Source: Escherichia coli (GTDB taxonomy: Bacteria > Pseudomonadota > Gammaproteobacteria > Enterobacterales > Enterobacteriaceae). Taken from it: a DNA stretch of 64,000 bases. The position numbers were made by a program. Below, piece by piece: positions 18,234-21,200 of the stretch (the first letter of the stretch is position 1; the number at the start of each line of letters is the position of its first letter). The DNA lies in assembly GCF_002854065.1 (NCBI RefSeq), contig NZ_CP024147.1; one strand, 5' to 3'.

Positions 18234-21200
18234 TTAAACAAAAAAACGAAGCAAGCATACGCCTGATGGCGGTCCAAAAAAAAGAGTCATCTTGCCTAAG
18301 AGTATTGGCAGGATGGTGAGATTGAGCGACAATCGACTTACACCGTCGCTTAAAGTGACGGCATAATAATAAAAAAATGAAATTCCTCTTTGACGGGCCA
18401 ATAGCGATATTGGCCATTTTTTTAGCGCAACATTTGCGGCAAATTCCCTTCTCCATACAGGTGTAGTGCACCGACCGCGACCACATATCGCCCCGGCGGC
18501 ATGGCGCGTAATTTATCCCGCCAGGCGAGATTTCGCTGATGCATAAGCACATCGTACAGCGACTGACTGAACGTATTGGGCAGCGTTATTTCATTATTTT
18601 GCGGCGGCGCATTCAGCCACCAGCTCATCATTTGTTGCAGCAACCGTGCGTTGGTATGCCAGTGGGTCAGCGTATCGTCCAGCAGCGCCAGTCCTTTGTC
18701 AGGGAGCTGGAGCAACATGGCAATCTGGTTTTCAGCCCCTTCCAGTTCAATCACGGGTTTATGTTGTTGCTTCGCCGCCTGCAATAGCTGGTAATCGATA
18801 CCGTATTCTGCCCGCAGCCCCAGTTTTTGTGCCTGCGTCGCCTGAAGAACCATCGCGATTTGCCACAGCGGTTGGGTAGAAAAGAGTGACGGAGAAATGC
18901 CCATCTCCTGGCTAATGTGCTGCAGATTTTGTAATTGCTCCTCGCTAATACGCTCTTCCAGCGCCTCGCAGGCAGGCAAATTAGCAAAAGGCGTATCGCT
19001 GGTGGAAACATCCGCCTCGACGATCAGCGCATCGGCGTTTTTGAGCTTTTTGAGCAAACGGGTGGGCAGGGGAGCCATATCGTGGCTACCCATATGAATA
19101 CTGCCAATCAGATGAAAATGGCGATTGCCGGGAAGGGTGATATCGATGGCAGGCCAGGTGTAATGATTACCGCGCAGCGCGGCCCAAAGCGTTTTTACCC
19201 GGTACAACAGATCCATACGACCTCCCTTTGTGAAATATCATGCTAGCGCGCGGGGAGGGATGGCGCAAATGGAGTTGGGGACTTGTTTAATGTGTTTGTA
19301 TGATTCAGTATGTTCTTGTATCGCTATTCACAGGGAAGCAACAGTTAAAAACTATGAAACAGGCAACAAGAAAACCGACGACACCCGGAGATATTCTTCT
19401 CTATGAATATCTGGAACCGCTCGATTTGAAAATCAATGAGTTAGCAGAGTTGCTGCATGTTCATCGTAATAGCGTCAGTACACTGATCAATAATAATCGT
19501 AAACTCACCACTGAAATGGCATTCCGTCTGGCGAAAGTTTTTGATACCACAGTCGATTTTTGGCTAAACCTCCAGGCGGCAGTTGATCTTTGGGAAGTTG
19601 AAAACAACATGCGCACCCAGGAAGAATTGGGACGGATTGAAACAGTGGCTGAATATTTGGCACGCCGTGAAGAGCGTGCAAAAAAGGTCGCGTAAGGCCA
19701 AAACATCGCTTCATCTCGTAGGCCGGATAAGGCGTTCACGCCGCATCCGGCATCCGAGTACCATTGCCTGATGCGACGCTTACGCGTCTTATCAGGCCTA
19801 CAAACCTGTGCCTGAACCGTAGGCCGGAGAAGGCGTTTACGCCGCATCCGGCAGTCATGCGTCGATGCCAAATGCGCCACCCTAAAGCAGCGCATCCGCA
19901 ATGATGTACTTATTCCTTCGGTTTAAACCGCAGCAACCGGTTGGCGTTACTCACTACGGTAATCGACGAGAGCGCCATTGCCGCTCCGGCAACTACCGGG
20001 TTAAGCAACGTTCCAGTGAACGGCCACAAAATACCGGCGGCGACCGGAATACCGATGCTGTTGTAGATAAACGCGCCGAGCAGGTTCTGCTTCATGTTGC
20101 GCAGCGTTGCGCGGGAAATAGCGAGCGCATCCGCAACGCCCATCAGGCTATGGCGCATCAGGGTAATCGCCGCGGTTTCAATGGCAACATCACTGCCGCC
20201 CCCCATCGCAATGCCGACATCCGCCTGGGCCAGCGCTGGCGCGTCGTTAATGCCGTCGCCCACCATTGCCACCTGACGTCCTTCACTTTGCAGACGTTTG
20301 ATCGCTTCGGCTTTACCGTCCGGCAGCACTCCGGCGATCACCTCATCAATCCCTGCTTCTTTGGCGATCGCATTGGCGGTGGTTGGGTTATCCCCGGTCA
20401 ACATCACCAGACGATATCCCGCTTTATGCAGGTGTTGCAGCGCCGCCACGCTATCACTACGCAATGGATCGCGTACTGCCAGCAGGGCTACCGCTTTCCC
20501 GTCAACCGCCAGCAGCACAGGCGTTGCCCCTTGCGATGCCTGAGCTGAAATATCTGCTTCAATCGCTTTAGTATCAACTTGCTGGTCATTTAACAGCGCC
20601 TGATTGCCCAGCAATAACGCATGACCTTCAGCTTCACCGCTCACGCCCAGCCCGCGCAATGTGCGGAAACCGTTGACCTGCGGCAGCTGCATATCGCTTG
20701 CTTTATCGAGGATCGCCCGCGCCAGCGGATGGCTGGAACCTTGTTCCAGTGCCGCCGCCAGACGCAGCGCCTGCGCTTCGTCAAAATCAGCAAATGTTTT
20801 CACTGCGACAACCTGCGGCTTCCCTTCGGTCAGCGTCCCGGTTTTATCGAACACGACGGTATCGAGTGTACTGGCGCGTTGCAGCGCGTCGGCGTCCCGC
20901 ACCAGCACGCCAAACTCAGCCGCCCGCCCGACGCCGGAAATAATCGACATCGGCGTCGCCAGCCCCAGCGCACACGGACAGGCAATAATCAGCACCGTGG
21001 TGGCAATCACCAGGGTATAGACAATCTGCGGTGCCGGACCAAAGAAATACCAGATTGCCGCACTGACAAGCGCAATAACCACTACTACCGGCACAAATAC
21101 GGCTGAGATTTTATCCGCCAGCTGACCGATTTCTGGCTTGCTGCTCTGGGCCTGGCGCACCATACGAATAATCCTTGATAGCGTGGTATGGCTGCCAACC

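What the first reader, a model, noticed from the sequence alone, without database searches (positions are those of the whole stretch)
18300..18425. Plus-strand intrinsic terminator with no upstream plus-strand gene between ybaK and ybaP
The hairpin GGCCAATAGCGATATTGGCC followed by ATTTTTTT (18395-18422) is oriented to terminate plus-strand transcription, yet both flanking genes are on the minus strand. On the minus strand the T-run is not adjacent, so this is not an obvious ybaP terminator. This hints at a short plus-strand transcript (sRNA or small ORF, e.g. a 29-codon ORF starting ATGAAATTCC at 18377) arising within the ybaK-ybaP spacer.
Basis: seen in the sequence. Interest (0 to 1): 0.25.

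Follow-up and report, generated by a model that had tools for sequence, protein, structure and literature searches.

The report
Terminator of the known ChiX sRNA
The "orphan" plus-strand terminator between ybaK and ybaP is the 3' end of chiX (also called sroB, micM or rybC), a long-known and well-studied 84-nt E. coli regulatory RNA that silences the chitoporin gene chiP, so the finding is real but ordinary.

Summary
The hairpin plus T-run is real: stem-loop 18396-18415, T7 at 18417-18423, plus strand. It is the Rho-independent terminator of chiX (SroB/MicM/RybC), an 84-nt Hfq-dependent sRNA at window 18340-18423 (+).

- Rfam sroB (RF00368) matches full length at 82.1 bits (gathering score 44).
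- The E. coli K-12 reference annotates ncRNA chiX (b4585) at the corresponding position, and the spacer differs from K-12 by one base.
- Published term-seq puts a very strong plus-strand 3' end exactly at the last T.
- A sigma-70 promoter (TTGGCA-17 nt-GACAAT, 18305-18333) sits correctly upstream of the 5' end.
- 97 orthologous loci across Enterobacterales keep the same layout (ybaK<- chiX-> <-ybaP), with compensatory changes in both hairpins.
- The single-stranded core pairs perfectly (12 bp) with the chiP Shine-Dalgarno region, and with the chbB-chbC decoy site.

The 29-codon ORF alternative is rejected: its stop codon lies 43 nt beyond the RNA's 3' end, and neither its length nor its sequence is conserved.

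Verdict: already known, low interest.

The parts
18305..18310 (+). chiX promoter, -35 hexamer TTGGCA
   Evidence: Promoter scan, 17-nt spacer to the -10 hexamer. Among orthologs that keep GACAAT, the hexamer 17 nt upstream is TTGGCA or, read one base over, TGGCAG in 66 of 75. A sequence prediction; not tested experimentally here.
18328..18333 (+). chiX promoter, -10 hexamer GACAAT, ending 6 nt before the annotated 5' end
   Evidence: GACAAT is present 42-50 nt upstream of the seed ATG in 73 of 84 distinct orthologous upstream regions.
18340..18423 (+). chiX (sroB/micM/rybC) small RNA, 84 nt
   Evidence: Rfam RF00368 sroB, model positions 1-83 of 83, 82.1 bits against a gathering score of 44. 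K-12 annotation: ncRNA chiX b4585 at 507204-507287 (+), which maps here with an offset of 488864. Term-seq 3' end at 507287 (+). Predicted fold -24.1 kcal/mol, z = -3.9.
18343..18361 (+). 5' stem-loop (RNA nt 4-22, 8 bp, loop of 3)
   Evidence: Fold. The sequence differs between genera but all 75 distinct orthologous 5' segments form a hairpin of at least 5 bp, with mean z = -2.6 against shuffles. 6 of 8 pairs show changes on both sides even in an imperfect alignment.
18365..18376 (+). A-rich tract of four in-frame AAN triplets (AAU AAU AAA AAA), the inferred Hfq distal-face binding site
   Evidence: Read from the sequence. Invariant A residues occur every third base at 18363, 18366, 18369 and 18372 across 83 orthologs. 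The literature describes ChiX as a class II sRNA that binds the Hfq proximal and distal faces through AAN motifs. Binding was not tested here.
18384..18395 (+). Seed UCCUCUUUGACG (RNA nt 45-56), complementary to the chiP Shine-Dalgarno region
   Evidence: 12 uninterrupted Watson-Crick pairs with K-12 chiP 5' UTR CGUCAAAGAGGA, which ends 7 nt before the AUG. -21.0 kcal/mol against -10.0 +/- 2.4 for shuffled targets, 0 of 1000 as good. Serratia chiP carries an 18-nt perfect complement over its own ribosome-binding site.
18377..18396 (+). Region pairing with the chbB-chbC intergenic decoy (nt 38-44 and 47-57; 7 + 11 bp)
   Evidence: Duplex of -25.0 kcal/mol against -8.8 +/- 2.4 for shuffles, 0 of 1000 as good. 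The decoy mechanism is taken from the literature.
18396..18415 (+).
   Evidence: 99.2% of cells are paired across 83 distinct orthologs, and three pairs show changes on both sides: two A-U to G-C and one A-U to U-A.
18417..18423 (+). U7 tail: the transcript's 3' end and the inferred Hfq proximal-face binding site
   Evidence: T-run in the sequence, invariant in orthologs. Term-seq 3' end at the last T. The proximal-face role is taken from the literature.
18422..18424 (-). ybaP stop codon (TAA), overlapping the last two bases of chiX (convergent overlap)
   Evidence: ORF list and K-12 annotation, ybaP 507286-508080 against chiX ending at 507287. The same 2-nt overlap is seen in 59 of 96 orthologous loci.

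Best explanation
The hairpin plus T-run is the Rho-independent terminator of chiX (synonyms sroB, micM, rybC), an 84-nt trans-acting Hfq-dependent small RNA. It is transcribed on the plus strand from its own sigma-70 promoter inside the ybaK-ybaP spacer.

Anatomy, 5' to 3':
- a stabilising 5' hairpin;
- an A-rich AAN tract;
- a single-stranded seed (UCCUCUUUGACG);
- the terminator hairpin;
- a U7 tail.

Mechanism:
- Hfq holds the RNA by the U-tail (proximal face) and the AAN tract (distal face).
- The seed pairs with the Shine-Dalgarno region of chiP mRNA. This blocks translation and promotes Rho-dependent termination within chiP, keeping the chitoporin silent when chitosugars are absent.
- When chitobiose induces the chb operon, a complementary site in the chbB-chbC spacer (and the chiP-leader fragment ChiZ) pairs with ChiX and causes its decay, which de-represses chiP.

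Shown here: the identity, boundaries, structure, conservation, synteny and both base-pairings. Taken from the literature: expression, Hfq binding, repression and decoy-induced decay.
For: 1. Identity. Rfam sroB matches full length at 82.1 bits against a gathering score of 44. The K-12 reference annotates ncRNA chiX at the same place. The spacer is identical to K-12 apart from one base at 18337. It is present in 5422 of 5426 complete E. coli genomes.
2. Ends. The promoter has correct geometry for a start at 18340 and its -10 hexamer is conserved. The published term-seq 3' end at K-12 507287 (+) equals window 18423. It scores 445,279 and 552,306 in the two conditions shown, against about 1,400-28,000 for neighbouring sites. 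In Salmonella, cDNAs cover the 84-nt RNA from start site to terminator, and it is enriched 56.7-fold in Hfq co-immunoprecipitation, with the gene order ybaK/ybaP <- -> <-.
3. Structure. Fold z = -3.9. The terminator helix is 99.2% paired with compensatory changes. The 5' hairpin is kept in 75 of 75 distinct orthologs although its sequence has turned over.
4. Synteny. ybaK lies upstream on the minus strand in 81 of 81 loci with enough flank, and ybaP downstream on the minus strand in 93 of 93.
5. Mechanism. There is a 12-bp perfect pairing with the chiP Shine-Dalgarno region and 11 + 7 bp with the chbBC spacer; in both cases 0 of 1000 shuffled targets did as well. Serratia chiP has an 18-nt perfect anti-seed over its ribosome-binding site. 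Literature supports the mechanism and the class II Hfq binding mode.
Against: Nothing found contradicts it. Caveats:
- Expression, Hfq binding and regulation were not measured on this strain. They are transferred from K-12 and Salmonella on the basis of near-identical sequence.
- The ortholog set was collected by an exact 18-mer match to the seed, so the invariance of those 18 columns in my alignment is by construction. It does not measure seed conservation on its own. The independent signals are the Rfam consensus and the retention of the 18-mer across many genera whose 5' hairpins have diverged.
- MAFFT mis-registers the 5' helix between genera, so it is only 63% paired under the E. coli register, and RNAalifold recovered only the terminator helix.
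Confidence: 0.97

Rival explanations
1. The plus-strand transcript encodes a small protein: the 29-codon ORF MKFLFDGPIAILAIFLAQHLRQIPFSIQV at 18377-18466. Either that, or ChiX is a dual-function RNA.
For: The ORF exists and starts with ATG. Its first 15 codons are highly conserved.
Against: The stop codon at 18464-18466 lies 43 nt beyond the mapped 3' end at 18423, so the terminated RNA has no in-frame stop. In 91 of 92 loci the stop lies beyond the RNA's end. ORF length ranges from 9 to more than 55 codons, with 85 different C-terminal tails, and T-runs of 7, 8 or 9 shift the frame. Upstream of the ATG is AAUAAUAAAAAA, with no Shine-Dalgarno sequence. Conservation of the first 15 codons is accounted for by the seed and the terminator stem, and partly by how the loci were collected.
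Confidence: 0.01
2. The hairpin serves mainly, or also, as the terminator or 3'-end stabiliser of the convergent minus-strand gene ybaP (a bidirectional terminator).
For: The hairpin begins 6 nt past the ybaP stop codon on the minus strand. That stop codon overlaps the chiX T-run by 2 nt, an arrangement kept in 59 of 96 orthologous loci. The hairpin is nearly palindromic, so it also forms in minus-strand RNA. RIL-seq pipelines label this region 'ybaP.EST3UTR' and then re-assign it to ChiX.
Against: On the minus strand the stem is followed by CGUCAAAGAGG (2 U in the first 8 nt), so there is no canonical U-tract, and the scan calls no minus-strand terminator here. The term-seq rows shown around this locus list no minus-strand 3' end nearby in the two conditions displayed; the only entry at the hairpin is the plus-strand chiX end. 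This reading could add to the ChiX explanation but cannot replace it.
Confidence: 0.05
3. A chance hairpin plus T-run with no function.
For: Terminator-like patterns occur at about the chance rate in this 3-kb region: 5 found against 4.4 expected.
Against: A covariance-model match with E = 5e-12, compensatory substitutions in the stem, strict synteny in 97 loci across many genera and one of the strongest term-seq peaks in the neighbourhood.
Confidence: 0.005

Closest known systems
ChiX / SroB / MicM / RybC sRNA (Rfam RF00368; E. coli K-12 b4585)
   Same: Everything tested: sequence (identical to K-12 over all 84 nt), length, boundaries, promoter, two-hairpin structure, ybaK/ybaP location and orientation, seed complementarity to chiP and to the chbBC decoy, and the U-tail terminator.
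   Different: Nothing within the RNA. One polymorphism lies 3 nt upstream of the start site (18337 C against G in K-12). The C variant is also seen in other Escherichia loci such as E. albertii.
Class II Hfq-dependent sRNAs (ChiX, MgrR)
   Same: A U-rich 3' tail after an intrinsic terminator, plus an internal run of AAN triplets for the Hfq distal face. Here there are four in-frame AAN triplets at 18365-18376, with A residues conserved every third base.
   Different: ChiX is a founding example of the class, not a variant of it. Hfq binding itself was not tested here.
Bidirectional intrinsic terminators between convergent genes
   Same: A near-palindromic G+C-rich hairpin placed between two convergent transcription units, chiX and ybaP, which overlap by 2 nt.
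   Different: Only the plus strand has the U-tract. On the minus strand the hairpin is preceded by an A-tract but not followed by U residues.

Membership tests
sroB/ChiX sRNA (Rfam RF00368) | Scores above the curated gathering threshold of the family covariance model, over its full length | tested here: met
   82.1 bits against 44, model positions 1-83 of 83, E = 5e-12, window 18340-18423 (+). It is the only match there in the whole-window scan.
sroB/ChiX sRNA (Rfam RF00368) | Encoded in the ybaK-ybaP intergenic region, on the strand opposite to both genes | tested here: met
   ORFs and annotation. The same arrangement is tabulated for Salmonella and found in 81 of 81 and 93 of 93 orthologous loci.
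sroB/ChiX sRNA (Rfam RF00368) | Single-stranded seed complementary to the chiP (ybfM) ribosome-binding site | tested here: met
   12 consecutive base pairs, -21.0 kcal/mol, 0 of 1000 shuffles as good. The Serratia chiP leader has an 18-nt complement.
sroB/ChiX sRNA (Rfam RF00368) | Complementarity to the chbB-chbC intergenic decoy site | tested here: met
   11 + 7 bp, -25.0 kcal/mol, 0 of 1000 shuffles as good.
sroB/ChiX sRNA (Rfam RF00368) | Expressed as a discrete ~84-nt RNA ending at the intrinsic terminator | not testable with these tools
   Not measurable on this strain. Published term-seq on K-12 (identical RNA sequence) places the 3' end at 507287 (+) = window 18423. Salmonella cDNAs span from the start site to the terminator.
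Hfq-dependent class II sRNA | Rho-independent terminator with a U-rich tail, plus internal AAN/ARN repeats | tested here: met
   U7 tail at 18417-18423. AAU AAU AAA AAA at 18365-18376, with A residues invariant every third base across 83 orthologs.
Hfq-dependent class II sRNA | Physical binding to the Hfq proximal and distal faces, and Hfq-dependent stability | not testable with these tools
   Literature only: 56.7-fold enrichment in Hfq co-immunoprecipitation and the class II binding mode.
Small-protein gene or dual-function sRNA | A complete ORF (ribosome-binding site, start and in-frame stop) within the transcript, with length and sequence conserved | tested here: not met
   The stop lies 43 nt past the 3' end and there is no Shine-Dalgarno sequence. 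In 91 of 92 loci the stop is beyond the RNA's end, and lengths range from 9 to more than 55 codons.
Bidirectional intrinsic terminator | A U-tract immediately after the stem on both strands | tested here: not met
   The plus strand has U7. The minus strand has CGUCAAAGAGG after the stem.

The most novel reading that the evidence does not exclude
The conserved convergent overlap may itself be regulatory. chiX's last two bases are part of the ybaP stop codon, and this holds in 59 of 96 loci. Any ybaP transcript not stopped at the hairpin would carry a perfect 84-nt anti-ChiX sequence and could act as a cis-encoded sponge. In the other direction, ChiX read-through runs antisense into ybaP until a published Rho-termination region about 180 nt downstream (K-12 507468 = window 18604), and could damp ybaP expression by transcriptional interference or antisense pairing. 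I found no paper in the searchable library that addresses either idea.
Probability: 0.1. Interest if true: 0.3.

Novelty: already known. Interest (0 to 1): 0.05.

Why it matters
As a discovery it does not matter: ChiX is one of the best-characterised enterobacterial sRNAs. It is the textbook case of a constantly acting repressor that is relieved by an mRNA decoy, and a founding class II Hfq-binding sRNA. The result is useful as a calibration point for the scan. Reading raw sequence alone, the first stage correctly deduced an independent plus-strand sRNA gene, its approximate promoter location and its terminator from an 'orphan' terminator between two minus-strand genes. The case also shows why PGAP-annotated genomes look empty here: most RefSeq E. 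coli records list only ybaK and ybaP under this stretch, while the curated K-12 record lists chiX.

Tried and rejected
1. Duplex prediction with full-length ChiX against the full targets gave over-extended, physically meaningless duplexes because intramolecular structure is ignored. I redid it with only the single-stranded segment, nt 23-57.
3. Column-wise covariation for the 5' helix is compromised. Stem length differs between genera and MAFFT shifts the register, giving 63% paired, and RNAalifold kept only the terminator helix. I replaced this with per-sequence folding.
4. The 18-mer scan of genome contigs also returned non-ChiX hits, which I set aside. In Betaproteobacteria-type contigs the 18-mer is the start of a ~180-aa membrane-protein ORF (MKFLFDLFPVILFF...). 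Other hits from Bacteroidales, Bacillales and similar are chance matches. The Serratia hits turned out to be the chiP leader on the opposite strand.
5. A literature search for ybaP together with ChiX found nothing on antisense interplay, only an annotation remark.
6. The small-ORF reading and the chance-hairpin reading were considered and rejected (see the rival explanations).

Full report
**1. What is in the sequence**

The stem-loop GGCCAATA-GCGA-TATTGGCC lies at 18396-18415 on the plus strand. It is followed by A at 18416 and seven T at 18417-18423.

The neighbouring protein genes are both on the minus strand: ybaK at 17739-18218 and ybaP at 18422-19216. ushA (+) ends upstream at 17702. On the minus strand the stem is followed by CGTCAAAGAGG, with no T-run. 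A simple pattern scan finds terminator-like sites at the chance rate in this region (5 found against 4.4 +/- 2.3). The pattern alone therefore proves nothing, and the case rests on the evidence below.

**2. Identity**

- A covariance-model scan against Rfam gives one hit in the region: sroB (RF00368), window 18340-18423 (+). It covers model positions 1-83 of 83 and scores 82.1 bits against a gathering score of 44, E = 5e-12 (confirmed in the whole-window scan). The match ends exactly on the hairpin and T-run.
- The curated E. coli K-12 MG1655 record annotates 'ncRNA chiX, b4585, small regulatory RNA ChiX' at 507204-507287 (+). It lies between ybaK (506603-507082, -) and ybaP (507286-508080, -).
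- With a constant offset of 488864, these coordinates map onto window 18340-18423, 17739-18218 and 18422-19216.
- The window is identical to K-12 across the spacer except at 18337 (C against G), 3 nt upstream of the 5' end.
- The stretch is present in 5422 of 5426 complete E. coli genomes. Most PGAP annotations list only ybaK and ybaP there, which is why the terminator looks orphaned.
- A review states that ChiX is 'a.k.a. RybC, MicM, or SroB'.

**3. Ends of the transcript**

A sigma-70-type promoter, TTGGCA (18305-18310), 17 nt, GACAAT (18328-18333), ends 6 nt before the annotated 5' end at 18340.

Term-seq on MG1655 (Adams et al. 2021, supplementary file 1) lists a plus-strand 3' end at 507287, which is window 18423. 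It is classed 'primary: chiX; antisense: ybaP'. Its scores in the two conditions shown are 445,279 and 552,306, against about 1,400-28,000 for neighbouring entries.

In Salmonella, sroB/rybC is tabulated with adjacent genes ybaK/ybaP in the orientation <- -> <-. It is enriched 56.7-fold in Hfq co-immunoprecipitation, and cDNAs cover the 84-nt RNA from its start site to its Rho-independent terminator.

**4. Structure and conservation**

The 84-nt RNA folds into a 5' hairpin (nt 4-22), a single-stranded middle segment, and the terminator hairpin (nt 57-76) with a U7 tail. The fold energy is -24.1 kcal/mol, z = -3.9 against dinucleotide shuffles.

Of these loci plus the window, 97 have the ChiX layout of seed, GGCC...GGCC hairpin and T-run. 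They come from Escherichia, Salmonella, Citrobacter, Klebsiella, Enterobacter, Kluyvera, Pluralibacter, Cedecea, Rahnella, Rouxiella, Hafnia and others.

| Feature | Result |
|---|---|
| ybaK upstream on the minus strand | 81 of 81 loci with enough flank |
| ybaP downstream on the minus strand | 93 of 93 loci with enough flank |
| Terminator helix paired | 99.2% of cells; three pairs changed on both sides (two A-U to G-C, one A-U to U-A) |
| 5' hairpin of at least 5 bp | all 75 distinct versions, mean z = -2.6 |
| GACAAT -10 hexamer | 73 of 84 distinct upstream regions |

The 5' hairpin has diverged in sequence and length between genera but is always retained.

Caveat: the 18 seed columns are invariant by construction, because the loci were collected by exact match. 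Retention of the 18-mer across genera whose 5' hairpins have turned over, together with the upper-case Rfam consensus, are the independent signs of constraint.

**5. Mechanism, tested on sequence**

I used only the single-stranded segment (nt 23-57).

- ChiX nt 45-56 (UCCUCUUUGACG, window 18384-18395) forms 12 uninterrupted pairs with CGUCAAAGAGGA in the K-12 chiP leader, which ends 7 nt before the AUG and so covers the Shine-Dalgarno sequence. The duplex is -21.0 kcal/mol, against -10.0 +/- 2.4 for shuffled targets; 0 of 1000 did as well.
- With the chbB-chbC spacer it forms 11 + 7 pairs at -25.0 kcal/mol, against -8.8 +/- 2.4; 0 of 1000 did as well.
- Five Serratia hits from the 18-mer scan were not ChiX. 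They are the opposite strand of the chiP leader: gtcaaagaggaatttcat-T-ATG. In four of them the ORF is complete, encodes 467 aa and is 74-75% identical to E. coli ChiP; the fifth (L087) is cut off after 10 codons. This is an 18-nt perfect anti-seed over the ribosome-binding site of the target in another genus.

According to the literature:
- ChiX continuously represses chiP when chitosugars are absent.
- The induced chb mRNA titrates ChiX and triggers its decay.
- ChiX pairing increases Rho-mediated regulation within chiP.
- The chiP-leader fragment ChiZ also sponges ChiX.

**6. Hfq features**

The segment 18365-18376 reads AAU AAU AAA AAA. The alignment shows invariant A residues every third base, at 18363, 18366, 18369 and 18372. 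This fits the AAN motifs through which ChiX, a class II sRNA, binds the distal face of Hfq, while the U-tail binds the proximal face. Binding was not tested here.

**7. The 29-codon ORF**

The ORF at 18377-18466 ends 43 nt beyond the RNA's 3' end, so the terminated RNA has no in-frame stop. No Shine-Dalgarno sequence precedes the ATG.

Across 92 loci the stop lies beyond the RNA's end in 91. ORF lengths range from 9 to more than 55 codons, and there are 85 different C-terminal tails. T-runs of 7, 8 or 9 shift the frame. This is an RNA gene whose seed happens to begin with ATG.

**8. Minus strand**

The ybaP stop codon (18422-18424) overlaps the chiX T-run by 2 nt, and the same overlap occurs in 59 of 96 loci. 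The hairpin also forms in minus-strand RNA but lacks a U-tract.

The term-seq rows displayed around this locus show no minus-strand 3' end nearby, so how ybaP transcripts end is not settled. The same study lists a plus-strand Rho-termination region at 507468, which is window 18604. It is antisense to ybaP, with Rho score 3.7 and p = 4e-10. This suggests that chiX read-through is stopped by Rho about 180 nt downstream. These points feed the only speculative reading left, regulatory interplay between ybaP and chiX, to which I give a low probability.

**9. Verdict**

The sRNA interpretation is supported and the small-ORF alternative is rejected. The feature is the terminator of a known, curated and extensively studied sRNA. 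Novelty: already known. Interest: 0.05.

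Noticed in passing
window 18604 (K-12 507468), plus strand, inside ybaP antisense: A published Rho-termination region (Rho score 3.7, p = 4e-10) lies about 180 nt downstream of the chiX terminator on the same strand. This implies that some chiX read-through runs antisense into ybaP and is stopped by Rho.
   Followed up: partly
window 18252-18265, minus strand: A terminator-like site (CAGGCGTATGCTTG followed by CTTCGTTTTT) lies between the chiX promoter and the ybaK start codon (18218). It could end ybaP read-through transcripts or sit in the ybaK leader. 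It is a weak 5-bp stem and may be chance.
   Followed up: no
window 18337: The only difference from K-12 in the ybaK-ybaP spacer is C in place of G, at position -3 relative to the chiX start. The C variant is also present in E. albertii and other Escherichia loci.
   Followed up: partly
L031, L033, L100, L110 (Serratia spp.), chiP leader: Serratia chiP (74-75% identical to E. coli ChiP) carries an 18-nt perfect complement to the ChiX seed directly over its ribosome-binding site, longer than the 12-nt match in E. coli. A fifth locus, L087, has the same leader but its ORF is cut off after 10 codons.
   Followed up: partly
window 17711-17738, plus strand: The ushA 3' end mapped by term-seq (K-12 506602 = window 17738) follows the hairpin GTGCCGGATGTTCGCATCCGGCAC, which has no T-run. 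It abuts the stop codon of the convergent ybaK gene. The window has one base difference from K-12 in the loop (TTCGC against TTTGC).
   Followed up: no
window 4055-4119, plus strand: Rfam DnaX ribosomal frameshifting element, 96.8 bits. This is expected within dnaX.
   Followed up: no
window 19721-19798 (both strands) and 61096-61173 (+); 61050-61092 (-): Rfam naRNA4 (CssrE) and ES036 (CssrF) matches lie in intergenic regions, the first between ybaQ and copA. I suspect, from my own knowledge and without testing, that these are REP-type repeat elements.
   Followed up: no
window 61675-61763, plus strand: An Rfam AgrB (antisense RNA of the arsR-gor region) match sits just above threshold, 46.4 bits against 40. 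From my own knowledge the location is unexpected for that family. Possibly a related repeat or paralogous toxin-antitoxin-type locus.
   Followed up: no
L011, L049, L058, L065, L069, L082 (non-enterobacterial contigs): The ChiX 18-mer ATGAAATTCCTCTTTGAC also occurs as the first six codons (MKFLFD) of a ~180-aa membrane-protein ORF in Betaproteobacteria-type contigs. These are chance or coding matches unrelated to ChiX.
   Followed up: yes
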